DNA of 64,000 nt from an uncultured virus (IMG/VR IMGVR_UViG_3300049793_000365) (Duplodnaviria > Heunggongvirae > Uroviricota > Caudoviricetes), in IMG/VR virus record IMGVR_UViG_3300049793_000365, one strand, 5' to 3'. The translations under genes and the position numbers were made by a program. Shown piece by piece: positions 1,438 to 62,128 of the stretch. Every line of letters starts with the position of its first letter. Positions within the stretch are counted from its first letter, which is position 1. The notes under the pieces were generated by a model. That model did not search any database, was not told where the DNA came from, and saw nothing but the letters and a program-made list of their open reading frames with translations.

Positions 1438-1824
1438 ATGAAGAATTTAATGGTATTTGAAACGTTCGTAGATGATTATTATACAGAAATAAAGCGACTT
1501 AAGAAGGATGCTATTGATAAGTTACTATATGTTGGTACCACTCTAATTGATGATTTTGGGTTTGATTTATATAAAAAGGGCTTCTCTTTTGTCAATAAGA
1601 AGATAATTAATTACTACACAAATGATATAATTGAATTTTCACCTGAGTTAGCTGATGAATTAAAGAGAATGAAAAACAGACTCAAAGAATACAATATGGA
1701 TCTACTAATAGGTGTTGTAGTGGATGACCATGATAGGACAAGAATTGAATACAATTACAGCGATGAGTTTTGTAAATCTCTTATCGGTAAACGTGGAAAC
1801 TTCTATGTCTTTATTACTAAATAA
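1438..1824 (+). CDS. N-tagged putative head-internal protein, paralog family A
   Basis: MKNLMVFETF; TTATATATA 4 nt upstream; TLIDDFGF...ELKRMKNRL. Confidence 0.65.
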   Translation: MKNLMVFETFVDDYYTEIKRLKKDAIDKLLYVGTTLIDDFGFDLYKKGFSFVNKKIINYYTNDIIEFSPELADELKRMKNRLKEYNMDLLIGVVVDDHDRTRIEYNYSDEFCKSLIGKRGNFYVFITK

Positions 1825-1833
1825 ATTATTACT

Positions 1834-2100
1834 ATGAAGCATTTAAAAACATTCGAATCTTATATAAATGAGGAATTCTATTTGGGTTCTGATGAAGTTG
1901 TTGGTGTGACTTTTAAATTAAAGCAACCAGTTACTTGTGATGGTAAAACATTTGGTACAGAAGATACGTGGACAATTGATAAAGCTATTGATGATGCTCA
2001 TTACTGTACGTCAGACAAAGGAGATAAGGAAGTATTTCACACAGATATTATATTAGGTGATACTATTATGAGTACAGAAGATTCAGCTAAATTTCACTAA
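1834..2100 (+). CDS. N-tagged putative head-internal protein
   Basis: MKHLKTFESYINE. Confidence 0.7.
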   Translation: MKHLKTFESYINEEFYLGSDEVVGVTFKLKQPVTCDGKTFGTEDTWTIDKAIDDAHYCTSDKGDKEVFHTDIILGDTIMSTEDSAKFH

Positions 2101-2831
2101 TCCCACCAAGTATATAGTGTCTTTTTATCTCTATTTAATTCGAATGTATCAGCGTTACCATACATAGTTTGTAGCTCATCCATTTCGGAATCTGTTAATT
2201 CTTTTATGTAAAAGCCTTCTAACTGTACACGAGCATCTGGTCTATCAATTACCCTAAGACCATTGAATACTATTCTATTTTTATACTTTGCTAAATCAAT
2301 CATAAGCTCGCACGTAGTAAAAATACTATTAGCTACTTTTTCTGTTAACTCAGCCTCTTTACTCTTTATCAATTTTTCAATAATACTAAATGGTACTTTA
2401 TCAAATCTCAAAACATCCAACTCAAGACTATATGATAAATAATAAGGGTCTAGTATATCATCACTGGCTGAAAATACAAATGATACAACTATCTCATGAG
2501 AGTTTACATCGTGTTTAGTTACGAAATCCAATAATGGTTTGGCTAACGTATGTAACTTCTCTTCTAATCTAAAATAACCATCATCGTCACCAATTTTATA
2601 ACCCATCGATAATGTGATATCACAGTTAATCTTTTGCGTCAATCGAATAAACTCTTTAGCTATTTCGGGTGTTAGTTTAGACTTATCGCGTGTTTTAAAA
2701 GCACAAATAGTTTTTCTTATGTTATATATCTTCTCGGTGTCATACTGGTCAACAAACCATTGCATAGCCTCATCAATCTCTGATTCTGTTGTGTATGAAT
2801 ATGTTTCGTTAAAGCGTTTTAAATGTTCCAT
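2097..2831 (-). CDS. N-tagged protein, family A-like
   Basis: MEHLKRFNE; EAMQWFVDQY. Confidence 0.65.
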   Translation of the reverse strand: MEHLKRFNETYSYTTESEIDEAMQWFVDQYDTEKIYNIRKTICAFKTRDKSKLTPEIAKEFIRLTQKINCDITLSMGYKIGDDDGYFRLEEKLHTLAKPLLDFVTKHDVNSHEIVVSFVFSASDDILDPYYLSYSLELDVLRFDKVPFSIIEKLIKSKEAELTEKVANSIFTTCELMIDLAKYKNRIVFNGLRVIDRPDARVQLEGFYIKELTDSEMDELQTMYGNADTFELNRDKKTLYTWWD

Positions 2832-2832
2832 A

Positions 2833-3249
2833 TTAATAATATTTATAAGTATATCTTAAACTAAGATTTAGCTTCATTAACTTAAAATCAGTGATGCTAT
2901 CCAGTCTTCTGTAAAAATCATCAGCTCTTTCTTTATTGAATAGGTTTTCATAGCTAAATTTCCTGTTATTAGTTATGATGTCAATATCCAATCTATCAAC
3001 TGTTTCTCGTGTGTGATGAGCTTCTATCTTTTTAAAAAATCTAATCAAATCAAATTTAAATTCCTTTGCTGATATAGAAGTAGAATTAGCCGCGCCATCC
3101 AATGTTTGGTTATATCTTATCTCAAAGCAATTGTAATCAACTACTAGTTTAAAGTCATATTTCTCACAAAAATCATCGAATACCGCTCTGATATGAGCTA
3201 TATTTTCATATGTATCTTCATGTTGTTCAAACCTCTTTAAGTACTTCAT
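2833..3249 (-). CDS. N-tagged protein, family A-like
   Basis: MKYLKRFEQ; AVFDDFCEKYDF. Confidence 0.65.
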   Translation of the reverse strand: MKYLKRFEQHEDTYENIAHIRAVFDDFCEKYDFKLVVDYNCFEIRYNQTLDGAANSTSISAKEFKFDLIRFFKKIEAHHTRETVDRLDIDIITNNRKFSYENLFNKERADDFYRRLDSITDFKLMKLNLSLRYTYKYY

Positions 3250-3464
3250 TTATCAGTAAAATATTTGGATAAAACTATTTCAATAGCATTATGTAAATTA
3301 GACTCAAGTAATTTAGCTTCTTCTTCGTCAATATCAAGTTTCATTGGTAATTCAATATTAACAGAGATAGCTTTATCGCTGATATCTATTTGATATTGGG
3401 TACCTGGTGTCTGACACTCGGTTTTAACCGCCTCAAATGTATTGAAATTTTTAAGATTCTTCAT
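3246..3464 (-). CDS. N-tagged small protein
   Basis: MKNLKNFNTFE; first gene after TAATATATA. Confidence 0.7.
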   Translation of the reverse strand: MKNLKNFNTFEAVKTECQTPGTQYQIDISDKAISVNIELPMKLDIDEEEAKLLESNLHNAIEIVLSKYFTDK

Positions 3465-3468
3465 CTAC

Positions 3469-3477
3469 TATATATTA
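3469..3477 (-). promoter_or_regulatory. putative phage late promoter TAATATATA
   Basis: 4 nt upstream of the ATG at 3464; recurrent motif. Confidence 0.7.
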
Positions 3478-3480
3478 ATT

Positions 3481-3506: not shown

Positions 3507-3757
3507 ATGATTATGAAATTAGAGCAATTTTTTACAATAGAAGAAAATGATTTAAGAGAGATAATAGCCGATTTATTGGTTAAACGTGGTCTTAAATTTA
3601 AGGATGGTATTGATGATATCACCGTAAGTATCAATACAAATAGAAACAGTATAGATGGTCCAGTTGAGATTGGTCGCACATGGGGTTATCTTAACTCAGG
3701 TGTTGTTATTCATTGCGAGGTTGAGAATATCTAAATAATTTATATACTATATATTCT

Positions 3758-3766
3758 TAATATATA
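3758..3766 (+). promoter_or_regulatory. putative late promoter TAATATATA
   Basis: 5 nt upstream of the ATG at 3772. Confidence 0.7.
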
Positions 3767-3771
3767 GATTT

Positions 3772-4587
3772 ATGAAGTATTTAAAACAATTCGAATTGTT
3801 CCATTCTAACCCGCATTATGATATTACTGAGAATCTTTATAGAGATAAACAGTTCTACTATTTCACATCAGAGAACGGGTGGGAATATGAAGTCGGTTTT
3901 TACCTAAAGGGCAATCAATACTTCTTTGGGTTTAAAGCAAAAAGACCAGAAGACTTCATGTTTGATTTCGCTATATTAACCAATGACAATCCTTTTAAAG
4001 TATTAGCTACTATCAAGTGGATATGCGAAGAGCATTATAAGAAATACAAAGGTGAGAAGTACGTATTCTCACTAACTGGTGAAAAGGAAATATCAGCTAA
4101 GAGAGAAAGGTTGTATATGAGAATATTAGATGGGCTTGATGATTGGAATATCGTTAAAGATCCTGAAATGTCTCGTTGGTATCTAACCAGAAAGAATGAT
4201 ATATCTGAGTCTCTTGAAACTACACATCCAATGTTAAAGCTAAAGAGAGACTTTAATATTGAGTTAGAAGTTGATAATGAATTGATACATTCAATTGAAG
4301 TAGTTGACCCAAGTGATGATTACTATTCAAATGAGTGGTGTCAAGTAAGAGTATGGACAAAAGTTATGAGAACTGAACAAACATCAGAGCTTAACAATAA
4401 AGAGGAAATTGCTCTTATAAAAGAGAAATATTTAACTGAGAGTACTGATAAGCTAAATAAGTTTCTTAAAAAGTTCTGTATGAAATATGAGTTTACATAT
4501 TTCGATGTTCATAATAGTCAAGCAAAAGATACCATGTTTACTAAGAATTACGCACTCATTAGTTACATCATACGGATAGGATTCTAA
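3772..4587 (+). CDS. N-tagged two-domain protein (C-terminal family B domain)
   Basis: MKYLKQFELF; C-terminal KKFCMKYEF. Confidence 0.7.
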   Translation: MKYLKQFELFHSNPHYDITENLYRDKQFYYFTSENGWEYEVGFYLKGNQYFFGFKAKRPEDFMFDFAILTNDNPFKVLATIKWICEEHYKKYKGEKYVFSLTGEKEISAKRERLYMRILDGLDDWNIVKDPEMSRWYLTRKNDISESLETTHPMLKLKRDFNIELEVDNELIHSIEVVDPSDDYYSNEWCQVRVWTKVMRTEQTSELNNKEEIALIKEKYLTESTDKLNKFLKKFCMKYEFTYFDVHNSQAKDTMFTKNYALISYIIRIGF

Positions 4588-6397: not shown

Positions 6398-6426
6398 TAT
6401 CATCAGAACTTCTTAATATATAGTTT

Positions 6427-6753
6427 ATGAAATATCTGAAAAGTATTAATGAACTACTCGATTCAAAGGAGATAGAAAGACAATTAGAGATTGAACTAGA
6501 AGATGATTATCTCGATAACATCATAGAGTATATCTTGGTTGGTACTAGTTCGACTGGTTATTGGGTTGAGTTAAATATTAAGATACCAAATGACTTAACA
6601 TTCTCTAAAGCTATATACTTAGATTATTTAATCAATCAGCTATTGAAATCCAAGATGGAAAAATTTTGTAGAAAATATAACTACGAACTTCTATCAATTA
6701 AGCCAGCGGCTACTGGTAACAATCAAATTCATGCTCAGATAAGAACTAATTAA
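6427..6753 (+). CDS. N-tagged protein, family B
   Basis: MKYLKSINE; KFCRKYNY; TAATATATA at 6414-6422. Confidence 0.7.
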   Translation: MKYLKSINELLDSKEIERQLEIELEDDYLDNIIEYILVGTSSTGYWVELNIKIPNDLTFSKAIYLDYLINQLLKSKMEKFCRKYNYELLSIKPAATGNNQIHAQIRTN

Positions 6754-7145: not shown

Positions 7146-7574
7146 TTAATTATGAATAGTGGTAACCAGTCTGATATACAGCGATGTTATGTTGTAATTG
7201 ATATATTTACCATCTTCTAAATCCTTTACTACATCAGATAGATTGGTAAAAACTGTTTGTGATTCATCACTTGAGTTAACAAACAATTGCATTGTTATTT
7301 TGGATGGGTCATAAAACATAGAACCATTATTTGAACGGACTTGTTTAAGTTTAGATATAACCCTTCTTATTTCCCTAAAGAAGTCTTCATTAACAACAAT
7401 TGATAAATTACTATTGTCAGTTTCAAATGTGCTATCAGATAAACCCTCGGTCAAATCATCAAGTTCATATTTAAGCATTAGTGATGATAAACAGTTAAAT
7501 ATTTCTGAGCGGTCAAAGCTATTACCAAACACATCTTCATATGTGGTCTCATTGAATTTTCTTAAATACTTCAT
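7146..7574 (-). CDS. N-tagged protein, family A
   Basis: MKYLRKFNE; NCLSSLMLKYEL...FFREIRRVISKL. Confidence 0.65.
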   Translation of the reverse strand: MKYLRKFNETTYEDVFGNSFDRSEIFNCLSSLMLKYELDDLTEGLSDSTFETDNSNLSIVVNEDFFREIRRVISKLKQVRSNNGSMFYDPSKITMQLFVNSSDESQTVFTNLSDVVKDLEDGKYINYNITSLYIRLVTTIHN

Positions 7575-8107
7575 ATCATTTGTGTTGTTAGATCCTTATA
7601 TGATTTCTGAAGTACATCACCAATACCATATAGATTGAATTCGTTATCCTTTTGCGCTCTTTTGTTAGCATATCCGAATAAGCCTTTGAATTTACCTCTA
7701 TTTTTAACGAAAATACAAGCTGTAATCATTGTGTTATCATCTTCGAATGATTCCTCATAGGGAACTTCAATAGTAACTGTTACGTTGAATTTCTCGTCTT
7801 CTGTATTAGTATCACTTAAAATATATTCAAAACATCTGTGATATTCTTTACGCTCAATTTTCATTTTCATTTTCGACACATCAGGAATCTCAACTTTTCG
7901 TCTACCCAACTCAGCTAATAACTCTGGTGTATAAACAATTGATTTAACCATCTCTCTGATTTGAGAAACGTCCACCTTGTAATTCTTATGATGCTTTTGT
8001 AATTGCGTATTACCAGCCATGAAATCCTTGAAGAATCTCTGTAAATCTTCGGTAGAAGGATTTGAATTTTCTTTTAAAAAGTCACTCCAATGTTTTAGGT
8101 TTCTCAT
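7571..8107 (-). CDS. N-tagged protein
   Basis: MRNLKHWSDFLKE; TAATATATA at 8113-8121 (minus). Confidence 0.7.
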   Translation of the reverse strand: MRNLKHWSDFLKENSNPSTEDLQRFFKDFMAGNTQLQKHHKNYKVDVSQIREMVKSIVYTPELLAELGRRKVEIPDVSKMKMKIERKEYHRCFEYILSDTNTEDEKFNVTVTIEVPYEESFEDDNTMITACIFVKNRGKFKGLFGYANKRAQKDNEFNLYGIGDVLQKSYKDLTTQMI

Positions 8108-8144
8108 AGTTGTATATATTAATTATAATCCGTATATTTGACTC

Positions 8145-8666
8145 ATGTTTGTATGTACTGGTGAAATAGATGAAAAGATTAAATTCTTAATCAGAAATTC
8201 TGATACCATTGCTTTACGTGGGATTTTTAGGGATATCGCTAAAGATGTTATAGAACAGCGCAATTTACCAAATGATGATAGACATACCTATCTGGCTTCA
8301 CTAGCAGTAGAAGTAGCCATAAAGAATATACACAATTATAATGTGAATACAGGAAAAGCTGTTTTGTTTTTCTATAATACAATTGATGGTATATTACTTC
8401 GTTCTAAATTAGACCCGTTTGTAGAAATTTTGTTCGCACACGATTTTTCACATAGAGTACACAATCATTTCATGCACTTCGAGAGTGATAAGTATAAGTT
8501 ATACTTTATGTATGACAAGAAGTATAAAGAATTGCTTTATAACGGTGATATTAAAACCAAAGTCAATAATATTGAAGAGCTTCAAGATATGCTTAAACAA
8601 TCGAAAAGAAATGAATCAATTACTTCGATTTTAAGCTCTCAAAAAACAGATCCAGTTTGTGATTAG
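8145..8666 (+). CDS. sigma region-2 (gp55-like) related protein with C-terminal tag
   Basis: AIKNIHNYNVNTGKAVLFFYNTI resembles sigma region 2.3-2.4; KRNESITSIL; TATATTTG at 8133-8140. Confidence 0.4.
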   Translation: MFVCTGEIDEKIKFLIRNSDTIALRGIFRDIAKDVIEQRNLPNDDRHTYLASLAVEVAIKNIHNYNVNTGKAVLFFYNTIDGILLRSKLDPFVEILFAHDFSHRVHNHFMHFESDKYKLYFMYDKKYKELLYNGDIKTKVNNIEELQDMLKQSKRNESITSILSSQKTDPVCD

Positions 8667-10755
8667 TTAAATACGTTGGTAATTCATCCAATGGTACTTT
8701 AAATACTTTCGCCTTATCAGTAGCCTTATCAGTAATCTTACCAGTGATAGTTAAATCATCTGAGTTGAATTTAGTAAGTCTTATTAAATAATCAGATGTT
8801 TCTTTTGTGATATTATCTCTATATTCTTCGAACTCAAGCTTAGTTATCATTTCTCTGAACTTTTTATAGTTAGCGACAGTTTCTCTTAAATCGTCAGACT
8901 CATCGATATATTCTTCTATTTTATCCAACATAGAATCACCAGCTTTTTTAATATCATCATCCGTAATATATTCACCCATTGATATGTATTCTGGTAAGTC
9001 AACAGTATCATTCGGTTCAGATTCTATGATAGTCATAATCTCATAGTCATTAAGCTTATCGAAATTGTTAGCTATGTATTCAACAATGTTCTCACAACCC
9101 ATTTCTATACGACCTTCGTGATAATCGAATCTCAATTTACCATGTTCTACCTTAAGAGCATCGTGTAAATTACCTTCAGCCTCAGAAGAAAGTTCACCCA
9201 TAAAATCATTAATATATTCTTTCAATCCGTGTTTGGATAATGTTTCATACCACTTATCTTTATCATCATCCTTAAGCTCAATACCAATTGAAGTCATGAT
9301 ATTAACAAGTCTCTTGTTTTGCTCATCACTTAAGTAGTTTGAGAAATATTCTTCCTCTTCTGTACCATAAAAGAAATCATCAGTATTACCATAATAATTT
9401 GCTCTATGTACATAAGCCGCATACTCAGTTGTCATTGTAGAATAATAATCCTCTATTGGTATTTCTACGTTAATATAGGTATCAAAATATTTCCTCTCTA
9501 CGTTATATTTAATCTTTTTACCATTATTATAAACAAGAGGTTCTAATATCTTATCAAGTATCTCATCATAGTTATCCAGTTCTTCCAAATCAAATCGATT
9601 TAAGAACATATATCTCTGATATTCTGCTTCAAATACCATATCACCGTTCGTAAATTCAATAGCATCCTCTATTGTTCCTCTTGCTATCATTTCTTGAATA
9701 GGTGTTAATTTGTCTGTTTTTACTACTAAACCTCTCAATAAACGCCATTCGAATGGTATTCTATCAATTAAATTCTCCCAAATATCTAATTCAACAGTCT
9801 TATTAAAGATATCCTTAGTCATTGGTACACTTCTAAGTCTTTGTATAGCTTCTTCTTTACTAATTGGTTTGAATATATCAATGTCAATTTTATACGTAGC
9901 ACAGTACCCTTTAAGTTGAGTAGACTTATCATCCTTTAAATGTGATGTATGTACTGTACCATCTGATTTAATAGTAGTACCAATTCTGAAATCATTACTT
10001 GAATAAGGCACACCGAAGTTCCAAACGAAATATTGTTTGGTTAATTTTTCCGGGCTATTATAATGATTCCACATACCTCGGCTAGATATACACCATGAAA
10101 CTGAACCAAGCTTCTTAGAAGCTTCTTCTGTTGATATTTCTGCTACAACTATGTTACCTTGGTGGTAAGTTAATACGGCACCTTCTGTTTCATTAATCTG
10201 TTCTACAACTTGTTTCATACTAGTGTAGCTATCTATATGTGCTATGGTTGCTGTATAAAGGTCATCGAAGTCAGTAAAAGAGAACGATTTTGTTTTCATT
10301 AAATGAAGGTAGTCTTTGTAGACATTATTTGGCATATTAGTCACCAATGAAAAATAGTCACTATTCTCTCTGGCTTCCTTCTTATGTTTAGCTGGTAGTT
10401 CAGCTACAATTCTATTGAATCTTGTGTGTTCTTCAATACGCATAATATCATCGAGAACTTTCTCATATGATTCGTATTTGTCTATCTGTTGTGGTAATTC
10501 ACCAATCTTTCTACCTAATTGTTTAATTAGGTTATAGAGATATTTTAAGTCTTCAATTTTAATCTGTTCTTTGTAACGGAATTTAGTGAAAGCGAAGATA
10601 TAACCAGGGTTATTTTTAAGCAATTCTTTTATTTGAATGAAGTCACCATCATTTTCCGGTATATTATTCTTCTTCAAGAATGTTCTGGCAGATGATAAGT
10701 TCTCAAATAGTTGCCAACTTAGTATATCTTTATTAGGTGAATTTAAATATCTCAT
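8620..10755 (-). CDS. large N-tagged protein (711 aa), probable virion/ejected protein
   Basis: start reassigned to MRYLNSPNKDILSWQLFE, 5 nt after TAATATATA (10761-10769); LGSVSWCIS motif; acidic C-terminal half. Confidence 0.7.
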   Translation of the reverse strand: MRYLNSPNKDILSWQLFENLSSARTFLKKNNIPENDGDFIQIKELLKNNPGYIFAFTKFRYKEQIKIEDLKYLYNLIKQLGRKIGELPQQIDKYESYEKVLDDIMRIEEHTRFNRIVAELPAKHKKEARENSDYFSLVTNMPNNVYKDYLHLMKTKSFSFTDFDDLYTATIAHIDSYTSMKQVVEQINETEGAVLTYHQGNIVVAEISTEEASKKLGSVSWCISSRGMWNHYNSPEKLTKQYFVWNFGVPYSSNDFRIGTTIKSDGTVHTSHLKDDKSTQLKGYCATYKIDIDIFKPISKEEAIQRLRSVPMTKDIFNKTVELDIWENLIDRIPFEWRLLRGLVVKTDKLTPIQEMIARGTIEDAIEFTNGDMVFEAEYQRYMFLNRFDLEELDNYDEILDKILEPLVYNNGKKIKYNVERKYFDTYINVEIPIEDYYSTMTTEYAAYVHRANYYGNTDDFFYGTEEEEYFSNYLSDEQNKRLVNIMTSIGIELKDDDKDKWYETLSKHGLKEYINDFMGELSSEAEGNLHDALKVEHGKLRFDYHEGRIEMGCENIVEYIANNFDKLNDYEIMTIIESEPNDTVDLPEYISMGEYITDDDIKKAGDSMLDKIEEYIDESDDLRETVANYKKFREMITKLEFEEYRDNITKETSDYLIRLTKFNSDDLTITGKITDKATDKAKVFKVPLDELPTYLTNHKLDLFFESLKSK

Positions 10756-10792: not shown

Positions 10793-11239
10793 TTATGATA
10801 ACCAAACTTGAATAAGAGTTTTATTTGCTCTTTCGATGTGTCTTGTTGTAGTGAGATCCACATTTAATATACTATCGCATCTATAATGTACGTCATACCC
10901 GACATCAGCTACGAAGCGATACTTCACTGTAAATTCTTCACTGGCTTTCTTTTCAAATTTAAGAAGTAATTTAAAAATATTCTCAACATCTTTCTTACTA
11001 ACTTTTTCCAATTCTATTTTAAAAAGAAATTGGTTTAAAGTGTGGTCAAAACTTGATGTTGCTGACCAATCATCAATTAATTCTTGCCCAGCTTCATTTA
11101 TTAAAACTAAGTAGGAATTAGTCAATTTTTTGCGTTTATTAAAGTAAAGATTGGAAATCTTATTAACTTCAGTTCTTTCCTCTTCTTTGAATTTTTCAAA
11201 GTTCTCCTTAAATCTTTCGAATAATTGAATGTGTTTCAT
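10793..11239 (-). CDS. N-tagged protein, family A
   Basis: MKHIQLFERF; EAGQELIDDW; paralog of 26253. Confidence 0.7.
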   Translation of the reverse strand: MKHIQLFERFKENFEKFKEEERTEVNKISNLYFNKRKKLTNSYLVLINEAGQELIDDWSATSSFDHTLNQFLFKIELEKVSKKDVENIFKLLLKFEKKASEEFTVKYRFVADVGYDVHYRCDSILNVDLTTTRHIERANKTLIQVWLS

Positions 11240-11241: not shown

Positions 11242-11820
11242 TTAGTATTCTATTTCTGGGTACGGCGCTTCATCCCAGAAGTAAGCCGTTATTATTTTTA
11301 TATCCTTCTTGTATAACGGAACATAAATATCTATCGCATTTTGATTTTTATCCGTTGGTACTGAATCATCTAAGAAGGAGCTATCGTAGTGTAAAAATCC
11401 ATCATATCCAGTTACACAATCATATCCTTTAGATTTGACAGCATCCTCAAATCTTTTAATATAAAGCATATCATATGGATTAGCTTCTATTAAATCCATT
11501 CTATTTAATTCCTCAGACTTAAAAGTCCATTCATCTTTACTAAATGTGTATGTATATTCTATACCAACCTCATCCATTATAGGAATCCATTTTGATTCAA
11601 ATTCTGCTTTTGAATAAAGAGTTAGTGGATTTTTATATGTTATTTCAAGTTCAGTGACATATCCACTACAACCATTAGCATAAAATCCAGCCACATTCAT
11701 ATCCGTTGTGGTGAATAAGCTACTATCTTTTATATTTGTTAATAACTTCCCACCATGCCAAACAGTCTTTTTAACAAGACTGAATAACTCAAATAGTGCG
11801 AATGGGGTTATATGCTTCAT
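11242..11820 (-). CDS. N-tagged ADP-ribosyltransferase-fold-like protein
   Basis: VWHGG...LFTTTD...AGFYA...YKNPL...KGYDCV pattern of phage ART-like (ART-PolyVal-type) domains; MKHITPFALFE. Confidence 0.5.
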   Translation of the reverse strand: MKHITPFALFELFSLVKKTVWHGGKLLTNIKDSSLFTTTDMNVAGFYANGCSGYVTELEITYKNPLTLYSKAEFESKWIPIMDEVGIEYTYTFSKDEWTFKSEELNRMDLIEANPYDMLYIKRFEDAVKSKGYDCVTGYDGFLHYDSSFLDDSVPTDKNQNAIDIYVPLYKKDIKIITAYFWDEAPYPEIEY

Positions 11821-22333: not shown

Positions 22334-22739
22334 CAGTTAATACGATTAAACCAACCACATAACCTCTTGTTTTAGAAACAGTACCACCATTGTGTTTCAC
22401 TTCTATAAAATCATATTCGGCACAAACCCTTTTACAAATTTTATCAAGTTTGGGATATAACTCATCACCATGTATATTACTCTCAAACTCATATGTCAAA
22501 AGTAGCATAGGGAAGTCAACATTTGGATCTCTTCCAACGAATAGTTCTTTTGCTGATTCTATTTTATCCAAAAAACGATTACTATTTATAATTTTCATAT
22601 TCATAAAAGAATATGGTAAATCCTCAGAAAGATTTTCTATATTTACTTTTTCTACTTGGCTTAATAAATTATGTTGCTCATCGTAAGAAATCTGCTTTTT
22701 CGGATGTATATAGTCGCGGAATTTTTTAAGTAATTTCAT
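22323..22739 (-). CDS. N-tagged protein, family B-like
   Basis: MKLLKKFRDY; KRVCAEYDF; CAATATATA upstream. Confidence 0.6.
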   Translation of the reverse strand: MKLLKKFRDYIHPKKQISYDEQHNLLSQVEKVNIENLSEDLPYSFMNMKIINSNRFLDKIESAKELFVGRDPNVDFPMLLLTYEFESNIHGDELYPKLDKICKRVCAEYDFIEVKHNGGTVSKTRGYVVGLIVLTAKI

Positions 22740-41756: not shown

Positions 41757-42236
41757 ATGAAGCATTTAAGAACTTTTGAGTCACATATCAACAGCGACAA
41801 TATCAAGGCTTGTGTCCAAGAATTAGTGGATGATTATTCATTAGTCGAGCATGATAATAAAGACAGAGTAGCATATTTATATAATGGTTCACCGAGTAGA
41901 ATTGGTGAGATTAACATGGTTATAGACCATAAATTATTATCCACTTTAAAAAACTGTGTTAAAAAACTAATAGCTCTTGATAATACATTCACCATTAAGA
42001 TTACGGTAGCGGCAGCTTTATTCATTGATGATAATATGGAAGATGTTGAATATGACTCTGTTAATTTCATCTGTAACGGAATGGACATAGAAGAAGCTAT
42101 TCTATCAAAAGCCGAGGAATGTTATGGTATAATTTACGCAAATGCTTTTGCTGGTGATTCGAATGCTAGTAGTCTGAGAGACAAGGTTGTACGTTATATT
42201 GATGAGATGGACATCCAGGTTATGAAAGATAAATAG
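41757..42236 (+). CDS. N-tagged protein, family A
   Basis: MKHLRTFESH; ACVQELVDDYSL. Confidence 0.7.
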   Translation: MKHLRTFESHINSDNIKACVQELVDDYSLVEHDNKDRVAYLYNGSPSRIGEINMVIDHKLLSTLKNCVKKLIALDNTFTIKITVAAALFIDDNMEDVEYDSVNFICNGMDIEEAILSKAEECYGIIYANAFAGDSNASSLRDKVVRYIDEMDIQVMKDK

Positions 42237-44563: not shown

Positions 44564-44971
44564 ATGAAACATCTTAAAAAATTCGAAAATATTGAAGATT
44601 TAATGGGTCTCCCTAAAGAAGATAGGAATGAGATATTCATTAATAATTTAAAATCTCACTTTGTTGAAATTGAAGATACATTCGATGTTTCAATTCATTT
44701 CTTTATGTCAACAGTATCAGTAGAATTTAATGATGAGTGGGGTTATAAGGAATATTCTCTAAAGGGTGCTACTGATTGGCCAAACGAATTTAAACCACCA
44801 CTTGATGATGCTATCAATAGATACACCGAGTTTATTAAATTATTGGAAGCAACAAAGAAAGTACTTCGTAAATTGGAACTTTCTGGGCTTTATGGTAGAA
44901 TATCTACGATAAATAGAAAGTCAGATGCTCCACCAGATGGTGTGAAAATTCATTTAAAAAGAGAAGAATAA
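44564..44971 (+). CDS. N-tagged protein
   Basis: MKHLKKFEN; TAATATATA at 44550-44558. Confidence 0.7.
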   Translation: MKHLKKFENIEDLMGLPKEDRNEIFINNLKSHFVEIEDTFDVSIHFFMSTVSVEFNDEWGYKEYSLKGATDWPNEFKPPLDDAINRYTEFIKLLEATKKVLRKLELSGLYGRISTINRKSDAPPDGVKIHLKREE

Positions 44972-45427
44972 ATGAAATACTTAAAATTATTTGAAAGCTT
45001 TACAAGTGACATCGATTCATGTATGACAACATTAATCGATGAATATTCATTTGATAAGATTACAGCACGACGAGGTAATAAAATCATTGATATGTGCTAT
45101 TATCGCACAGCAGAGTCTATTAAAGTGTCTTTAACCACTGAACTTATTAGTGAGATAATACTTCTTAATAAGAAAGCCATAGCACAAGGAAGAAAAGCAT
45201 TCATATCAATGGAAGAAGAATATGAAAATTCAATGGAATACTGCTATTTTGGTGGATGTAGAAAGATAGAAGACTGTATATCAAATGGTGATGTTTCAAA
45301 AGATTCTGACTTCATAATCCCAGGTCACGGTGATTTCTTCGACCTTGACGAGGTTTTAACACCAAATGGTGGTGATTTAAATAACTTCATAGGGTCTTCG
45401 GTTATTATTGAGTTACTGATTGTTTAA
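44972..45427 (+). CDS. N-tagged protein, family A
   Basis: MKYLKLFESF; SCMTTLIDEYSF. Confidence 0.7.
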   Translation: MKYLKLFESFTSDIDSCMTTLIDEYSFDKITARRGNKIIDMCYYRTAESIKVSLTTELISEIILLNKKAIAQGRKAFISMEEEYENSMEYCYFGGCRKIEDCISNGDVSKDSDFIIPGHGDFFDLDEVLTPNGGDLNNFIGSSVIIELLIV

Positions 45428-45872
45428 TCTCTTCATAGAAGACACAAACCGTAGCTTTACTTCTGTGTAAGCTTATTATAACATCTTTCAATTTAAGTTC
45501 ATATTTTCTACCAATTTTGGAAAACATCTCTTTATTCATATCAAGAAGTGTATTATACAAAGCTTCAAACGCATCATCACTTTCATCCTTAGCCTTTATT
45601 CTAATCAAAGCATCGTCTTCATCTTTGACTTTTTTAAAGTATTCTCGTGTATTATAGCAATTGTCAAATAGCTCTAACATATATGGCTCGTGGAATTCTT
45701 CATCCAAAGAAACTGTGATATCTTCATAATGCGTTCTATCAGGATCTCCGTTTTGTATATGTACATTACTAAATTCTATATTCTTATGGTATTCGAACTC
45801 AATGTGAAGTGATTTCAGTATTTCATCAGTACTGGCATTTTCGAATAATTTATATGATTTAATATATCTCAT
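45405..45872 (-). CDS. N-tagged protein, family B-like
   Basis: MRYIKSYKLFE; KIGRKYEL; TAATATATA at 45877-45885. Confidence 0.7.
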   Translation of the reverse strand: MRYIKSYKLFENASTDEILKSLHIEFEYHKNIEFSNVHIQNGDPDRTHYEDITVSLDEEFHEPYMLELFDNCYNTREYFKKVKDEDDALIRIKAKDESDDAFEALYNTLLDMNKEMFSKIGRKYELKLKDVIISLHRSKATVCVFYEEIKQSVTQ

Positions 45873-46169: not shown

Positions 46170-46373
46170 ATGAAAAACTTAAAATCAATTAAGGAACATT
46201 TTGGTAATACTGATATTATCAGAAGTGAATCTGAAATAAACGAATTACTCGATAAGGTTTCAGAAGGTAGAAATCACGGTTCTAAATTCGCTGGAATGTC
46301 ATATGAAGATGGTATACAAGCGATGTATGATTGGTTGGTCGGTAATGTAGATGAAAATCCAATGGAAGACTAA
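46170..46373 (+). CDS. N-tagged small protein
   Basis: MKNLKSIKEHF; TAATATATA at 46157-46165. Confidence 0.7.
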   Translation: MKNLKSIKEHFGNTDIIRSESEINELLDKVSEGRNHGSKFAGMSYEDGIQAMYDWLVGNVDENPMED

Positions 46374-46876
46374 TGAAACACTTAAAATTATTCGAAGAAT
46401 ATGGTGCTGACATCTTCAATGCTGAAGATTTAAAGTATATGTTACATAAATATCTTGATGAAGATATTATTGGTGAAATAACAGTTATGGAAGTAGCCGC
46501 CTTCATTGAAGAAGATGAATATATGTATTGCGTAAACTTACCAGATGATATTTGTGGAGATTTTGGTGATACTACTTTTCACACAGATGGAAATGCTAAG
46601 ATGTTATGGCACGAAGAACGCGAACCAGAAGGTGATAGTGAAATAAAAGCTTTCGTTTTAGAATTTAAAATGCCAAATAATACGAATAAATTCTCATATG
46701 ATAACAACACATTACGTAGTGAATTAGAAAGCAAATATGATATCTTAACAGACTTTGGTTCTTGTTCAGATGATGATGCACCAGGCGCACCAATCGTAGA
46801 TGAGCCAACTGTTCAGCTATTCTGTGTTAGGCGCAATGATTTAGTTAAGTTGATGCATAACTATCTGGGAGAATAA
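46373..46876 (+). CDS. N-tagged acidic protein
   Basis: MKHLKLFEEY. Confidence 0.7.
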   Translation: MKHLKLFEEYGADIFNAEDLKYMLHKYLDEDIIGEITVMEVAAFIEEDEYMYCVNLPDDICGDFGDTTFHTDGNAKMLWHEEREPEGDSEIKAFVLEFKMPNNTNKFSYDNNTLRSELESKYDILTDFGSCSDDDAPGAPIVDEPTVQLFCVRRNDLVKLMHNYLGE

Positions 46877-47291: not shown

Positions 47292-47789
47292 ATGAAACTT
47301 AAACTATTTGAAGAATTCACTGGGAAAGAAATAGCTACACGCATTGCTTATAATGATGTAATTAATATGGAGACATATCATTCAATATTCTATGAGATTT
47401 TAGAAGATGATATAACTATGAATATCAAGAGAGCAGTATTCGAGAACAAACCAGAATCAGAAAATGGAATTAACCAGTTCTTGAAGAACTCAGGAATTAA
47501 TGGTATTGATGAATGTATGTTATCTGTTCAGTTATATGGTTTCAACAAGGATAAATATGAAGATAGATTATATAAAATATATTCAATTAATGATGATTTC
47601 GGTGATTGCTTTGTAGTAGATAAGATAGACTTGTTTTATGATGATGAAGAACAAGTGAGTAAGGCAATTAGAAAAATAAAAGCTGAAAGCTGTGTGAAGA
47701 ATGTAGTCTATAAATTCAAATCGAATAGTTTCACTAACGGAATTAGAATTCTTATTTTATATAAAAATTCAAGTGCCAAATTATCTTAA
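47292..47789 (+). CDS. N-tagged protein
   Basis: start reassigned to MKLKLFEEF after TAATATATA at 47279-47287. Confidence 0.7.
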   Translation: MKLKLFEEFTGKEIATRIAYNDVINMETYHSIFYEILEDDITMNIKRAVFENKPESENGINQFLKNSGINGIDECMLSVQLYGFNKDKYEDRLYKIYSINDDFGDCFVVDKIDLFYDDEEQVSKAIRKIKAESCVKNVVYKFKSNSFTNGIRILILYKNSSAKLS

Positions 47790-54543: not shown

Positions 54544-54810
54544 ATGGCAAATAGAAAGATAGACAAATTTAAAAAGGCAACTGAAGTTGTCACTAAAAGC
54601 ACTAAGCTCATAATCCTTATCATTGGATCTATTGTTGCTATTGGATGTGCTACAATGTACGGATTAGCTGAACTTGGTGTAATCGGTGATGAAGAACAAT
54701 ACGATGAAGAGTACTATGATGAAGAAATTCCGTTGGATGATTCTACATACGTAGATGATGATTCTACCTATTATTATGAAGTTGTTGATGAAAATCAGAG
54801 AGAAGAATAA
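54544..54810 (+). CDS. late-type membrane protein with acidic tail
   Basis: one TM segment, D/E/Y-rich tail; TAATATATA at 54531-54539. Confidence 0.6.
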   Translation: MANRKIDKFKKATEVVTKSTKLIILIIGSIVAIGCATMYGLAELGVIGDEEQYDEEYYDEEIPLDDSTYVDDDSTYYYEVVDENQREE

Positions 54811-55214
54811 TGAAGTATTTGAAAGAGTTCGCTCATTGGATGGAAAATCCAATTAGTATTTCTGAGGTAAAAGAAGTCTTTCAAGAAATGATTGACTTGG
54901 GTATCAGTGTTAAACTGGTTGAATATAACGGTAAGCCTGAGTTATACAAGGGTAAAATATTAGGTATATTGAACGATGATTCTGAATACCAGGATAAACT
55001 CGTACCGCTTAGATATTATCAGGTTGTGTGTAGTGCTGATGCTGGTAACTACCCAGAGCTATTATCGTTATTAGATGCTGAATCAAATACGGGTAGTAGT
55101 TTTAGTCCAACCAATAGAATATTCAAGAAGCTCTCAGCACTTGGTATGGAGATAAGGAAATTTGAATTTTTAGATAAAGAAATAGCAATTGTAGAATTTA
55201 GATACTTTAGATAA
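54810..55214 (+). CDS. N-tagged protein
   Basis: MKYLKEFAHWME. Confidence 0.65.
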   Translation: MKYLKEFAHWMENPISISEVKEVFQEMIDLGISVKLVEYNGKPELYKGKILGILNDDSEYQDKLVPLRYYQVVCSADAGNYPELLSLLDAESNTGSSFSPTNRIFKKLSALGMEIRKFEFLDKEIAIVEFRYFR

Positions 55215-60445: not shown

Positions 60446-60713
60446 TATCCTCTTAGTTCGTAAATTATACTTTGCGCTCTTTCACCATTGACCCATAGAA
60501 CAGCCATATCATTGACGATGTTACAGAAGTCTCTTTCGTCAAGTTCATACCATTCTTGAAACTCTTCTACGGTATCAAAAATATATGTGACTGGTTTCTC
60601 AGGCACAACATCATCTATATCAAAAAATGATGTTTCTGTGTCGTATAATAGACAAACTTTTGTTGGGTATGTCTCTTTGATATACTTATCCAGAGCATCC
60701 CAGTAATTAAATT

Positions 60714-60854
60714 CTAACGGCTTTTTTTCCATTTATCGATTAGTTTATAAATCCAATTTCTTTTAAAAATTTTATCAAGCTTCTCTTCTCTCTTAACGGA
60801 TTGAGGCTTTAAGTCTTCCAATAATGCTTTAGTTATTCTACCACCTTGAAACAT
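60714..60854 (-). CDS. 46-aa tag-dominated microprotein, not in the ORF track
   Basis: MFQGGRITKALLEDLKPQSVKREEKLDKIFKRNWI... Confidence 0.55.
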   Translation of the reverse strand: MFQGGRITKALLEDLKPQSVKREEKLDKIFKRNWIYKLIDKWKKSR

Positions 60855-60999
60855 CGTACCATTTCTTTTTAAAGATTTTATCTATCTTCTCGTCTCTTCT
60901 ATCTGCTCTTGTTTTGAGCATTTCATTGAGTTGTTTACTCACACCATTTGTTGCTGAGATAATACGAACCAGTGCTATTAAATTTTTAATAAGATTCAT
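60838..60999 (-). CDS. 53-aa tag-dominated microprotein, not in the ORF track
   Basis: MNLIKNLIALVR...RRDEKIDKIFKKKWY... Confidence 0.55.
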   Translation of the reverse strand: MNLIKNLIALVRIISATNGVSKQLNEMLKTRADRRDEKIDKIFKKKWYDVSRW

Positions 61000-61247
61000 C
61001 TTGCTCAGAATAATAGTCTATACAATCATCATGAAACTTCTCAGTTGCTTCTGATAACGTCATTACTTTGAATTTTTCAAAGCGAGAGGTGTTATTTTTG
61101 ATTGTCAAGTTAAACTCATCATTCATTTCTGAACACTTAACCTCTAATGATTTTCGGTCAAGTGATACATTATCTGTGTAGAATGAACTTAGTGATTCAA
61201 AGTCATTGACGATTATAAATACTTCTGAGAGTGGCTTTATCATAGCG

Positions 61248-61324
61248 TAAATATATGGATAATAATTCATTTAACCAAATTATCGGATGAAATTTGGATA
61301 TTAAGTATTAATTACTTATATTTG
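61248..61324. promoter_or_regulatory. divergent pair of Bacteroidota-type promoters
   Basis: minus TTTG-N20-TATATTTA (61248-61279); plus TTTG-N20-TATATTTG (61293-61324). Confidence 0.8.
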
Positions 61325-61552
61325 TAGAAGTGAAGCGCAAAATATATTTCATATTGGATAAGGTAATGAATGTCATTGGATTCATTTGTATAGCACCAAT
61401 TTACGCATTTGCTTCTCTATTCGAAGATAAAGAATTCTCAAGACAAGCACAAGAATTAATGGAAGATGCTATCGAAGAGGCAGAGAATCCCAAGTCATAT
61501 AAGCGCAATAAGCAGTTAGAAAAATTATTAGACGATAAATAATATATACATT

Positions 61553-62128
61553 ATGCTGAAAAGATACACAGAATTCGTAACCGAGACCGTTTCAAACTTA
61601 TCTAAAGTGAGAAGCTTCCCAACCAATATGTATGAGATATACAAACTAAGTAAAAGCGACTTGGGTAAGTATTTAAATACTTGGTTTACTGGTAAACGAA
61701 TTATGTTATCAGATATTGAACAACACAAGGTTAAGTTTAAAAAGGGAACTTTAAAAGACTATTTGTGTCTTGATGAAGTTTGGACAGTAAAGCGAGTAGA
61801 TGATAAAACAAGTCAAAGATTATACAATCGCGACATCAATCCTATATCAATTATAATAATGGCACCAGCTAGTTCTAAATTCATAGAAGACGAGGCATTC
61901 AAAAGAAATGAAGCTGGTGAAACACTTTATAATATGAAGTGTATGATTCACTCGGTAGATGATTCTTCGTTCGGTATTTGGTTCAATGGAAGACCTCTTT
62001 CAGAATTAGAACCAGTTAAACACGAAATGATGAAGTGGGTTAATTCTAAACCAATTATTAATGGTGATGAATTTATCAATAAATGTATTGAGTTAGGAGC
62101 AGAAGAAGATTCAATCGATTATAACTAA
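61553..62128 (+). CDS. N-tagged protein
   Basis: MLKRYTEFVTE, very close to the T4 CTS MKTYQEFIAE; TAATATATA at 61540-61548. Confidence 0.7.
   Translation: MLKRYTEFVTETVSNLSKVRSFPTNMYEIYKLSKSDLGKYLNTWFTGKRIMLSDIEQHKVKFKKGTLKDYLCLDEVWTVKRVDDKTSQRLYNRDINPISIIIMAPASSKFIEDEAFKRNEAGETLYNMKCMIHSVDDSSFGIWFNGRPLSELEPVKHEMMKWVNSKPIINGDEFINKCIELGAEEDSIDYN

What the first reader, a model, noticed from the sequence alone, without database searches (positions are those of the whole stretch)
1438..62128. N-terminal MK(H/Y)LKxFxxF...E leader on about 27 proteins: a greatly expanded T4-like capsid-targeting cargo system
Seen: 27 ORFs start with the same leader. Examples: MKHLKTFESYINE (1834), MKYLKRFE (3249), MKHIQLFE (11239, 26253), MKHLKHFNKFGINE (36599), MKHLRTFE (41757), MKYLKLFESF (44972), MKHLKLFEEY (46373), MLKRYTEFVTE (61553). 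Established: T4 internal proteins carry a roughly 10-aa capsid-targeting sequence (MKTYQEFIAE type) that directs packaging into the prohead and is removed by the gp21 protease after Glu. Inference: these are late-made proteins packaged in the head and ejected into the next host. T4 has only a few such proteins, so dozens per 64 kb would be a very large injected arsenal, possibly anti-defence.
Basis: partly seen in the sequence, partly recalled or inferred. Interest (0 to 1): 0.88.

Follow-up and report, generated by a model that had tools for sequence, protein, structure and literature searches.

The report
Late-gene leader tag in huge phage
About two dozen unrelated small proteins in this piece of a roughly 712-kb soil phage start with the same 11-residue tag and sit behind the promoter type that relatives use for their head genes, so the tag most likely loads proteins into the virus head as phage T4 does, although nothing has been measured.

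Summary
16 of 154 called genes match a strict M-[KR]-[HYN]-[LI]-[KRQ]-x-[FYW] start (0.01-0.02 expected; 0 of 378 internal Met), 23 match a looser rule, and about 27 if weak cases are counted. Conservation ends at residue 11, codons vary synonymously, and the rest of the proteins are unrelated.

New here: 17 of 27 leader genes lie 4-6 nt behind a TTAATATATA motif (6 of 127 other genes), and 8 more follow such a gene. None has the Bacteroidota host-type promoter found on 15 other genes.

In five related huge-phage records the same motif precedes portal, protease-scaffold and capsid genes (10 of 10), so it is a late promoter by inference. Those relatives carry 15-79 leader genes each and a T4-type prohead protease fused to a scaffold full of [LI]AE sites.

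This supports a T4-like capsid-targeting role but does not show it:
- likeness to the T4 tag itself is weak;
- only 13 of 23 leaders carry an [LI]xE site;
- the cargo is acidic;
- the window's own head genes cannot be seen.

The scan has met such leaders before on other phage DNA. Verdict: new variant of a known kind, confidence about 0.45.

The parts
1438..1824 (+). leader gene, 128 aa, MKNLMVFETF; TTATATATA 4 nt upstream
1834..2100 (+). leader gene, 88 aa, MKHLKTFESYINE; second gene of the unit that starts at 1438
2097..2831 (-). leader gene (weak: E at residue 2), 244 aa, MEHLKRFNET; third gene of unit 3464>3249>2831
2833..3249 (-). leader gene, 138 aa, MKYLKRFEQH; second gene of the unit
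3246..3464 (-). leader gene, 72 aa, MKNLKNFNTF; TTAATATATA 4 nt upstream (3469-3478)
3507..3734 (+). weak leader, 75 aa, MIMKLEQFFTIEE
3772..4587 (+). leader gene, 271 aa, MKYLKQFELF; TTAATATATA at 3757-3766; its only match among 5.8 billion clusters is itself, on a contig of 711,805 bp
6427..6753 (+). leader gene, 108 aa, MKYLKSINEL; TTAATATATA at 6413-6422; paralogue of 36207-36599
7146..7574 (-). leader gene, 142 aa, MKYLRKFNET; follows 7571-8107
7571..8107 (-). leader gene, 178 aa, MRNLKHWSDF; TTAATATATA at 8113-8122
8620..10755 (-). 711-aa protein read from the internal start MRYLNSPNKD (half-leader) 5 nt behind TTAATATATA (10761-10770); the 747-aa ORF from 10863 is probably too long
10793..11239 (-). 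leader gene, 148 aa, MKHIQLFERF; follows 11242-11820
11242..11820 (-). leader gene, 192 aa, MKHITPFALF; TTATATATA variant upstream
22323..22739 (-). leader gene, 138 aa, MKLLKKFRDY; AATATATA 4 nt upstream
24675..25214 (-). leader gene, 179 aa, MKHLESYNGF; TTAATATATA at 25221-25230
26253..26753 (+). leader gene, 166 aa, MKHIQLFESF; TTATATATA variant upstream
32826..33167 (+). leader gene, 113 aa, MKHLKTYEKY; AATATATA 6 nt upstream; C-terminal match to phrog_3666
36207..36599 (-). leader gene, 130 aa, MKHLKHFNKFGINE; TTAATATATA at 36604-36613
41757..42236 (+). leader gene, 159 aa, MKHLRTFESH; AATATATA 4 nt upstream, divergent from the host-type promoter of the RNA ligase gene
44564..44971 (+). 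leader gene, 135 aa, MKHLKKFENI; TTAATATATA at 44549-44558
44972..45427 (+). leader gene, 151 aa, MKYLKLFESF; second gene of the unit
45405..45872 (-). leader gene, 155 aa, MRYIKSYKLF; TTAATATATA at 45877-45886
46170..46373 (+). leader gene, 67 aa, MKNLKSIKEH; TTAATATATA at 46156-46165
46373..46876 (+). leader gene, 167 aa, MKHLKLFEEY; second gene of the unit
47292..47789 (+). leader gene (one residue shorter), 165 aa, MKLKLFEEF; TTAATATATA at 47278-47287
54810..55214 (+). leader gene, 134 aa, MKYLKEFAHW; follows 54544-54810, which has the motif but no leader
61553..62128 (+). variant leader, 191 aa, MLKRYTEFVTE (the closest in form to T4 MKTYQEFIAE); AATATATA 4 nt upstream
63756..64000 (+). 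weak leader, open at the window end, MKLYKLNTFIEN; follows a gene with a host-type -7 box

Best explanation
The window is part of a huge (contig about 712 kb), AT-rich phage of a Bacteroidota host. Its genes fall into two promoter classes.

1. A host sigma-A type (TTTG, about 19 nt, TAnnTTTG). I infer that this drives early genes.
2. A phage-specific TTAATATATA type. Related huge phages place it in front of their portal, protease-scaffold and capsid genes, so I infer that it is late.

Nearly all small late genes in this accessory region encode unrelated, mostly acidic proteins. These carry one 11-residue N-terminal tag, M-K-(H/Y)-L-K-x-F-(E/N)-x-F-(E), which would form a short amphipathic helix with hydrophobic residues at positions 4, 7 and 10.

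The most likely role is an address tag that binds the scaffold core of the assembling prohead. The proteins would then be trapped inside the head, as with the capsid targeting sequence (CTS) of T4 internal proteins. In the members that carry an (L/I)-x-E site, the tag would be clipped by the T4-type prohead protease, and the proteins would leave with the DNA at the next infection.

Shown here: the tag, its selection at the peptide level, its link to the promoter class, and the head-gene use of that promoter and the protease-scaffold in relatives. Inferred: late timing, binding to the scaffold, cleavage, packaging, ejection, and any anti-defence function.
For: 1. The tag is N-terminal, 11 residues long, strongly non-random and under peptide-level selection. 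It sits on proteins that are otherwise unrelated.

2. Outside the window, 61 leader proteins from viral contigs were scanned. 54 have no Pfam family. Six of the other seven carry five different families (NFACT-R in two, DUF7448, C39 peptidase, LRR) that begin at residue 21 or later. The seventh has a C-terminal HNH domain.

3. Promoter link: TTAATATATA occurs 15 times in the window against 2.2 expected, and all 15 lie 4-6 nt before an ATG. 17 of 27 leader genes have the motif at 2-8 nt, against 6 of 127 other genes (P 3e-11). 8 of the other 10 follow such a gene on the same strand. 0 of 27 have the host-type promoter, against 15 of 127.

4. In LR745206, G006, G007, G009 and G010 the motif [AT]ATATATA lies 19-36 nt upstream of 10 of 10 portal, protease-scaffold and MCP genes. 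In G005 it directly precedes two tail-fibre genes and the neck protein gene.

5. The promoter-plus-leader unit is widespread. In 98 of 123 ORFs residues 7 and 8 continue as [FYW][EDNQ], although the search pattern did not ask for that. Genomes with many leaders (65, 79, 32, 15 and 25 pattern matches against 0-2 in reversed controls) include those with the T4-like head module.

6. A protease-scaffold homologue (62-84% identical) is present in 4 of 5 large leader-bearing IMG/VR records. The PTm1 homologue passes Pfam Peptidase_S77 (45.7 bits). The LR745206 homologue scores 20.1 bits, below the cut-off.

7. These protease-scaffolds hold 27-32 [LI]xE motifs (13-18 expected), 10-11 of them in tandem SEY[LI]AEN repeats. 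That fits a T4-like cutting rule.

8. [LI]xE ending at residues 6-14 is enriched in leaders: 13/23 vs 21/131 in the window, 22/45 vs 51/350 in G005, and 23/33 vs 46/223 in G003.

9. Positions 4 (L/I in all 23 leaders by the looser rule) and 7 (F/Y/I/W) match the positions reported as T4 CTS targeting determinants (PMC9026906, passages).

10. Leader genes sit directly downstream of the neck gene in G005 and LR745206, and within 6-18 kb of the head genes in LR745206.
Against: - No experiment exists and no cultured phage is known with this leader. The four cultured cousins PTm1, PAU, MA9V-2 and MaF61 have 0-1 pattern matches.
- Sequence likeness to the T4 CTS is weak. T4 IPI, IPII and IPIII score 0.6, -4.3 and -4.3 on the leader profile, near the 95th percentile (-1.6) of ordinary N-termini, against a minimum of 9.5 for real leaders.
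- 10 of 23 window leaders have no [LI]xE ending by residue 14, and the site's position varies from 6 to 14.
- The cargo is acidic (median pI 4.9; none of 23 above 8.5, against 26% of other proteins), unlike the basic T4 internal proteins.
- The window holds no head gene, and its genome cannot be searched.
- The window shares almost no proteins with the relatives used. Only a GGACT protein is shared with G005, at 66% identity. Transfer of the head-gene evidence therefore rests on the shared promoter and leader alone.
- PF03420 found nothing in five other leader-bearing records (G001-G005), which may be fragments.
- Dozens to perhaps over a hundred different cargo species per genome is far more than any phage is known to load.
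Confidence: 0.45

Rival explanations
1. The tag is a sorting or handling signal for late proteins, but not for the capsid. It might recruit a phage chaperone or protease (Hsp70, ClpB, Lon), set protein lifetime, or direct proteins to some other late structure or to the cell envelope.
For: Relatives that carry the leader encode an Hsp70 fragment and a ClpB-like ATPase (G003) and a Lon-type protease (G005). The tag is a basic-hydrophobic stretch. Only about half of the leaders have a T4-type cut site. The cargo is acidic and very numerous. All of this fits a cytoplasmic role as well as packaging.
Against: No partner is identified. Sharing a promoter with head, neck and tail-fibre genes and the enrichment of [LI]xE are not explained. 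There is no hydrophobic signal peptide in the leader.
Confidence: 0.2
2. The leader is a by-product of translation start. Because the late promoter sits 4-6 nt from the ATG, the mRNAs are leaderless or nearly so, and the first ten A/U-rich codons are kept because they make such mRNAs translatable.
For: 17 of 27 leader genes have the motif 2-8 nt from the ATG, and no Shine-Dalgarno sequence is visible. The leader is built mostly from A/U-rich codons (K, Y, L, F, N).
Against: Conserved residues use varied synonymous codons, including CTT, CTA and TTG for Leu4. 8-10 leader genes are internal to operons, with no promoter at their start. 6 genes have the same short spacing but no leader. Head genes use the same motif with 19-36 nt leaders.
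Confidence: 0.1
3. The proteins are one fast-evolving paralogous family, and only its N-terminal helix is still recognisable. On this reading it is common descent, not a portable tag.
For: Almost all are ORFans. Two paralogous pairs exist in the window. G003 holds a family of 14 or more copies that share about 30 N-terminal residues.
Against: Beyond residue 12 only 1 pair of 27 is alike. Lengths range from 67 to 271 aa. In relatives the same leader precedes different Pfam or PHROG domains (NFACT-R, C39 peptidase, LRR, DUF7448, a polynucleotide-kinase-like ATPase), and a variant of it precedes a CCA-adding enzyme.
Confidence: 0.08

Closest known systems
Capsid targeting sequence (CTS) of phage T4 internal proteins IPI, IPII and IPIII, removed by the gp21 prohead protease (Mullaney and Black 1996, cited through PMC9026906 and PMC3012670, passages read)
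   Same: It is an N-terminal peptide of about 10 residues on otherwise unrelated proteins. Hydrophobic or aromatic residues at positions 4 and 7 are the conserved core. A Glu-ended (L/I)-x-E site follows in about half of the leaders. The lineage has a T4-type portal, protease-scaffold and capsid module. The review already suggests that the CTS may let T4-like phages load varied proteins.
   Different: It is a different sequence class (MK[HY]LKxFExF against MKTYQEFIAE, read from the T4 record), with weak profile likeness. The cut site is variable or missing. The cargo is acidic, not basic. There are 16-27 genes in 64 kb and 15-79 pattern matches per related genome, against three IPs in T4. Most copies are fused to a promoter 4-6 nt upstream and are scattered through accessory regions on both strands. 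Nothing has been shown by experiment.
Propeptides of ejection and inner-body proteins of giant phages SPN3US and phiKZ (PMC5694885, passages read)
   Same: Giant phages load many proteins into the head, and a T4-related prohead protease trims them after Glu.
   Different: Several of those propeptides exceed 100 residues (127, 125 and 124 in gp50, gp53 and gp54) and are not one shared short tag. Here there is one 11-residue tag.
Cargo-loading peptides of encapsulins and scaffold-mediated loading in HK97-fold shells (recalled, not searched here)
   Same: A short peptide tag directs diverse cargo into an HK97-fold protein shell.
   Different: Encapsulin tags are mostly C-terminal, are not removed, and work without a protease or DNA packaging.
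Cultured Bacteroidota jumbo phages PTm1/PTm5 (Shirahamavirus), PAU, MA9V-1/2 and MaF61
   Same: They share a neck protein family with the leader-bearing clade. PTm1 has the T4-like portal, a gene annotated 'prohead core scaffolding protein and protease', and a capsid gene.
   Different: They have 0-1 leader pattern matches per genome. PTm1 head genes show other upstream motifs. These phages therefore cannot serve as experimental stand-ins.

Membership tests
T4-type capsid targeting sequence system | Short (10-19 aa) N-terminal peptide shared by otherwise unrelated proteins | tested here: met
   Conservation covers residues 1-11 only. Beyond residue 12, 1 pair of 27 is alike.
T4-type capsid targeting sequence system | Targeting determinants at residues 4 and 7 (hydrophobic or aromatic) | tested here: met
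   Among the 23 leaders by the looser rule, residue 4 is L 82% / I 17% and residue 7 is F 69% / Y 13% / I 13%. Both positions were part of the selection pattern, so this shows agreement, not an independent hit. The T4 rule comes from PMC9026906.
T4-type capsid targeting sequence system | Leader ends in the prohead-protease site (L/I)-x-E | tested here: inconclusive
   13 of 23 leaders against 21 of 131 other proteins have the site ending at residues 6-14 (P 9e-5). 10 of 23 lack it.
T4-type capsid targeting sequence system | Sequence likeness to the T4 CTS | tested here: not met
   T4 IP N-termini score 0.6, -4.3 and -4.3 on the leader profile. Window leaders score at least 9.5.
T4-type capsid targeting sequence system | gp21-type prohead protease and scaffold core in the same genome | not testable with these tools
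   The window's genome is not held and its contig is not in the collections scanned. The feature is met in relatives that carry the leader: LR745206 and 4 of 5 large IMG/VR records.
T4-type capsid targeting sequence system | Made when proheads are built (late) | tested here: inconclusive
   No expression data exist. The leader genes share the motif that precedes 10 of 10 head genes in relatives, and none has the host-type promoter.
T4-type capsid targeting sequence system | Proteins present in virions with the leader removed, and ejected on infection | not testable with these tools
   The phage is uncultured and no proteome is available.
T4 internal proteins (IPs) as a protein class | Small basic DNA-associated proteins | tested here: not met
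   The median pI of residues 13 to the end is 4.9, and 0 of 23 exceed 8.5.
Bacteroidota sigma-A promoters (the other promoter class in the window) | TAnnTTTG at -7 and TTTG near -33 | tested here: met
   15 of 154 genes have TTTG-N17-22-TAnnTTT[GA] ending 2-12 nt before the ATG, for example the RNA ligase gene at 41699. The consensus is taken from PMC7366714 (passage).

The most novel reading that the evidence does not exclude
The largest known phages of Bacteroidota use one portable 11-residue tag, wired directly to their late promoter as a cassette. With it they load on the order of a hundred different, fast-evolving, mostly acidic proteins into each head. RNA-repair-type enzymes seen with the leader or a variant of it in relatives would be among them. 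Infection would then begin with the injection of a ready-made protein arsenal rather than DNA alone. A still more novel option that the evidence does not exclude is that the tag addresses late proteins to a structure other than the capsid.
Probability: 0.3. Interest if true: 0.85.

Novelty: new variant of a known kind. Interest (0 to 1): 0.6.

Why it matters
If the tag is a head-loading signal, it gives a simple sequence rule for listing the packaged, and probably injected, proteome of uncultured huge phages. That would turn hundreds of ORFans into candidate first-minute effectors.

It would also explain part of what these 400-700 kb genomes spend their coding capacity on. It would offer a portable tag for loading foreign proteins into very large capsids.

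The coupling of a late promoter to the tag at 4-6 nt also suggests how new genes are recruited into the set, as promoter-plus-tag cassettes.

My searches of the held literature found no paper that describes this leader or such an expansion. The scan itself has flagged comparable leaders on many other phage windows, so this window is one more instance, not a first sighting.

Tried and rejected
- Whole genome of the window: not held. An exact 40-mer of the window is absent from viral contigs and metagenome contigs.
- Megablast of 20 kb against phages: no match.
- The search for related loci with the RNA ligase: none.
- tblastn of the leader protein 3772-4587 against phages: none. Among 5.8 billion clusters it matches only itself.
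- PF03420, PF17289 and PF04451 in five IMG/VR records (G001-G005): no matches, and the controls were partly silent, so this is uninformative.
- RNA ligase searched in G005-G010: nothing.
- I tried to find the window's own protease through the contig length in a homologue list. 1637 hits came back but only the best 120, all close relatives of the query, are listed, so the attempt failed.
- Complex prediction of the G009 protease-scaffold with a leader protein of the same record: no answer.
- AlphaFold2 on leader protein 41757-42236 without an alignment: poor model (mean pLDDT 50; residues 1-13 below 50), not usable.
- ESM Atlas on the 711-aa protein: no family.
- Sequencing runs: no RNA holder listed. 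The one DNA holder (a soil metagenome) may be the source of this DNA.
- Idea that the protease's own N-terminus is a leader: rejected, with profile scores of -6 to -8.
- Giant eukaryotic virus origin: considered because of the TATATA motif at the ATG and the CysRS gene. Dropped because of PHROG matches, Bacteroidota promoters and T4-like gp32, topoisomerase II and head genes in relatives.
- I did not read the PTm1 paper or any virion proteome of the cultured cousins.

Full report
WHAT THE WINDOW IS

The window is 64 kb at 31-33% G+C. It is packed (92% coding in my simple gene call) with 153-154 small genes on both strands.

Pfam and PHROG name few of them:
- an RNA ligase (40692-41699, -);
- a cysteinyl-tRNA synthetase (59000-60445, -);
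- an HNH endonuclease (48785-49315, +);
- a cytidine/dCMP deaminase;
- a GGACT-type cyclotransferase;
- a nucleoside deoxyribosyltransferase-like protein;
- a lipoyl/biotinyl-domain protein;
- the C-terminal part of a Dam methylase;
- one tRNA-Met.

No genome is held for the window. One of its proteins is on record on a single contig of 711,805 bp, so this is a piece of one of the largest phage genomes. The only sequencing run that holds it is a soil metagenome that may be its source.

- All quoted starts are ORF starts with the quoted peptides.
- A strict pattern is met by 16 of 154 genes, against 0.009-0.023 expected, and by 0 of 378 internal Met positions.
- A looser pattern gives 23, and my hand list with weak members gives 27.
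- Unselected positions are conserved as well (residue 8 E/N in 13 of 16; residue 10 F/Y/H in 13 of 16). Information content drops to background after residue 11.
- The consensus is M-K-(H/Y)-L-K-x-F-(E/N)-x-F-(E).
- Synonymous codons vary freely at conserved residues, so the peptide is what is kept.
- Behind the leader the proteins are unrelated. Only 1 pair of 27 is alike by phmmer, 2 pairs by BLAST when the leader is included, and almost none matches a family.

TWO PROMOTER CLASSES

This is the main new point. Reading the 60-70 nt before every gene head shows two motifs.

Class A is TTTG(C/G), about 19 nt, then TA(T/C)ATTT(G/A), ending a few bases before the ATG. It occurs on 15 genes, among them the RNA ligase gene. 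This is the published consensus of the primary sigma factor of Bacteroides (TAnnTTTG at -7, TTTG near -33; PMC7366714, passage). The host is therefore a member of the Bacteroidota, and these genes can be read by the unmodified host polymerase. I infer that they are early.

Class B is TTAATATATA(G/C).
- It occurs 15 times against 2.2 expected (0 of 100 shuffles reach 15), and every copy lies 4-6 nt before an ATG.
- 17 of 27 leader genes have it or a one-base variant at 2-8 nt, against 6 of 127 other genes (P 3e-11).
- Of the 10 leader genes without it, 8 directly follow a class-B gene on the same strand (1834; 3249 and 2831; 7574; 11239; 44972; 46373; 54810).
- No leader gene has class A.

The two features can be separated in both directions. 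Six class-B genes lack the leader (for example the GGACT gene at 15573), and eight operon-internal genes have the leader without a promoter at their start. That argues against the leader being a mere consequence of leaderless translation.

WHAT CLASS B IS

In 98 of 123 of the ORFs, residues 7 and 8 continue as [FYW][EDNQ], although the pattern did not ask for this. The promoter-plus-leader unit is therefore a widespread feature of AT-rich viral contigs, many of them 150-640 kb long.

I read two such records in full.
- G003 (183 kb): 33 of 256 genes carry the leader. It has T4-like gp32, topoisomerase II, an RNA ligase, an Hsp70 fragment and a ClpB-like ATPase.
- G005 (281 kb): 45 of 395 genes carry the leader, and both promoter classes are present. 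Class B directly precedes two tail-fibre genes, a tail-fibre-like operon and a conserved 745-aa protein.

That 745-aa protein is the neck protein family of Tenacibaculum phages PTm1 and PTm5 and gp88 of phage PAU. It is 62-65% identical to proteins of the published huge phages LR745206 and LR756502.

PTm1 has a T4-like head module, including a gene annotated 'prohead core scaffolding protein and protease', which passes Pfam Peptidase_S77. LR745206 has homologues of the PTm1 portal, protease-scaffold and capsid proteins (E 1e-47, 4e-21 and 3e-53). Its own Peptidase_S77 score is below the cut-off (20.1 bits). Homologues of its protease-scaffold, 62-84% identical, are present in 4 of 5 further large leader-bearing IMG/VR records.

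In these five records, 10 of 10 portal, protease-scaffold and capsid genes have [AT]ATATATA 19-36 nt upstream. Class B is therefore, by inference, the late promoter of this clade. Head genes keep a 5' leader of 20-35 nt, whereas the tagged genes start almost at the promoter.

HOW COMMON THE LEADER IS

A relaxed back-translated pattern gives the following counts (forward plus reverse strand).

| Record | Size | Matches | Reversed control |
|---|---|---|---|
| LR745206 | 635 kb | 65 | 0 |
| LR756502 | 642 kb | 79 | 1 |
| LR756504 | 636 kb | 32 | 1 |
| LR756500 | 462 kb | 15 | 1 |
| G006 (complete) | 640 kb | 25 | 2 |
| LR756501 | 735 kb | 2 | 1 |
| PTm1 | 225 kb | 1 | 0 |
| PAU | 219 kb | 0 | 0 |
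| MA9V-2 | 219 kb | 1 | 0 |
| MaF61 | 168 kb | 1 | 0 |
| This window | 64 kb | 11 | 0 |

The window is thus a typical or somewhat dense region of a clade-wide system. No cultured phage in this set offers a proteome to check it against.

DOES IT WORK LIKE THE T4 CTS?

For:
- The T4 tags, read from the T4 record, are MKTYQEFIAE (IPII, IPIII) and MKTFKEF... (IPI).
- A review reports that targeting depends mainly on residues 4 and 7, and processing on residues 8 and 10 (PMC9026906, passages). Residues 4 and 7 are the leader's conserved hydrophobic positions.
- The clade's protease is fused to a scaffold with 27-32 [LI]xE motifs (13-18 expected), 10-11 of them in tandem SEY[LI]AEN repeats. That is what a T4-like cutting rule would need in order to dismantle the core.
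- [LI]xE ending at residues 6-14 is enriched in leaders in all three gene sets.
- Leader genes lie next to neck and head genes in G005 and LR745206.

Against:
- On a profile of the leader, the T4 tags score 0.6, -4.3 and -4.3. They rank 3rd to 5th of 53 T4 N-termini but fall far below real leaders, which score at least 9.5. The likeness is one of form, not demonstrable homology.
- 10 of 23 window leaders lack the cut site.
- The cargo is acidic.
- The head-gene evidence comes from relatives that share with the window little more than the promoter, the leader and one GGACT protein.
- Nothing has been measured.

RIVALS

- A non-capsid sorting or handling tag: about 0.2.
- A translation-start by-product: about 0.1. 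Synonymous codon variation and the operon-internal copies count against it.
- One diverged paralogous family: about 0.08. The unrelated cargo parts, and the distinct domains behind the leader in relatives, count against it.

COMPARISON AND NOVELTY

The closest known system is the T4 CTS with its internal proteins. The review already voices the idea that the CTS lets T4-like phages load varied proteins.

What differs here:
- the sequence class of the tag;
- the scale (tens per genome against three IPs in T4);
- the acidic ORFan cargo;
- the fusion of the tag to a late promoter 4-6 nt away;
- the host group;
- the genome size class.

My literature searches found no paper with the leader strings, and none that links capsid targeting with huge phages beyond SPN3US. 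Earlier agents of this scan have reported comparable leaders on many other phage windows. One of those reports was later marked 'part of it fell'. I treated all of them as leads only.

VERDICT

This is a new variant of a known kind. Confidence in the capsid-loading mechanism is about 0.45.

Noticed in passing
window 41700-41756; also 47228-47291, 54515-54543, 21472-21571, 32746-32825: Short divergent intergenic regions hold a host-type (Bacteroidota) promoter facing one way and the TTAATATATA promoter facing the other. Presumed early and late genes are therefore interleaved back to back through the region.
   Followed up: partly
window, 15 sites listed (e.g. 3757-3766, 44549-44558): The late-type motif ends only 4-6 nt before the ATG and no Shine-Dalgarno sequence is visible. 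These mRNAs would be leaderless or nearly so. Head genes of relatives keep 19-36 nt between the motif and the ATG.
   Followed up: partly
window 44956-44971, 54794-54809, 38778-38793: Operon-internal genes, two of them with the leader, are preceded by a purine-rich ...AGAAGAATAA run that overlaps the upstream stop codon. It may be a coupling or ribosome-binding element in a genome that otherwise lacks Shine-Dalgarno sites.
   Followed up: no
window 59000-60445 (-) and 48624-48698 (-): A full-length cysteinyl-tRNA synthetase (Pfam tRNA-synt_1e, 310 bits) and a tRNA-Met are encoded by the phage. An HNH endonuclease gene (48785-49315) lies next to the tRNA.
   Followed up: no
window 33902-34390 (-): This 162-aa ORF matches only the C-terminal third of D12-class Dam methylases (profile positions 155-243 of 253). 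It is either a truncated gene or a split one.
   Followed up: no
window 8620-10863 (-): The longest ORF (747 aa) most likely starts at 10755 (711 aa, MRYLNS...), 5 nt behind a TTAATATATA copy. The ESM Atlas holds exactly that 711-aa form. No family was found.
   Followed up: partly
L157:1501-3639 (G009), with L158, L159 and L160: The prohead protease of the related huge phages is fused to a scaffold-like region of 10-11 tandem 14-residue repeats (SEY[LI]AEN[LV]DKNI.Y), an acidic linker and a conserved C-terminal domain. The repeat contains the T4-type cut motif and resembles the second half of the T4 CTS (EFIAE).
   Followed up: partly
G003 (L124-L133), e.g. 58357-60736, 65284-67609, 71616-72964: A family of 14 or more paralogues begins with the leader followed by about 20 more shared residues (MKYLKLFENFNQSEID..C..Y.I.NYTIN). 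The copies are arranged in tandem runs on both strands.
   Followed up: no
G005 (L134-L148) 95934-97094, 242296-243606; G003 69107-70360: RNA-repair-type enzymes sit near or inside the leader set. In G005 a polynucleotide-kinase-like ATPase carries the leader, and a CCA-adding enzyme behind a late-type motif starts with a leader-like variant (MKLKKYEQFLES) that did not match the leader rule. In G003 a T4-type RNA ligase behind the same motif starts likewise (MKLKKYLEFIKE).
   Followed up: partly
G005 149159-149767: A phage-encoded sigma-70-family factor (phrog_1740, E 5e-18) is a candidate reader of the TTAATATATA promoters. No such gene lies in the window.
   Followed up: no
window 49558-49845 (-) and 51801-52076 (+): There is a lipoyl/biotinyl-carrier domain protein (Pfam Biotin_lipoyl, 57 bits) and a weak acyl-carrier-like protein (PP-binding, below the cut-off). 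Both are unusual auxiliary genes for a phage.
   Followed up: no
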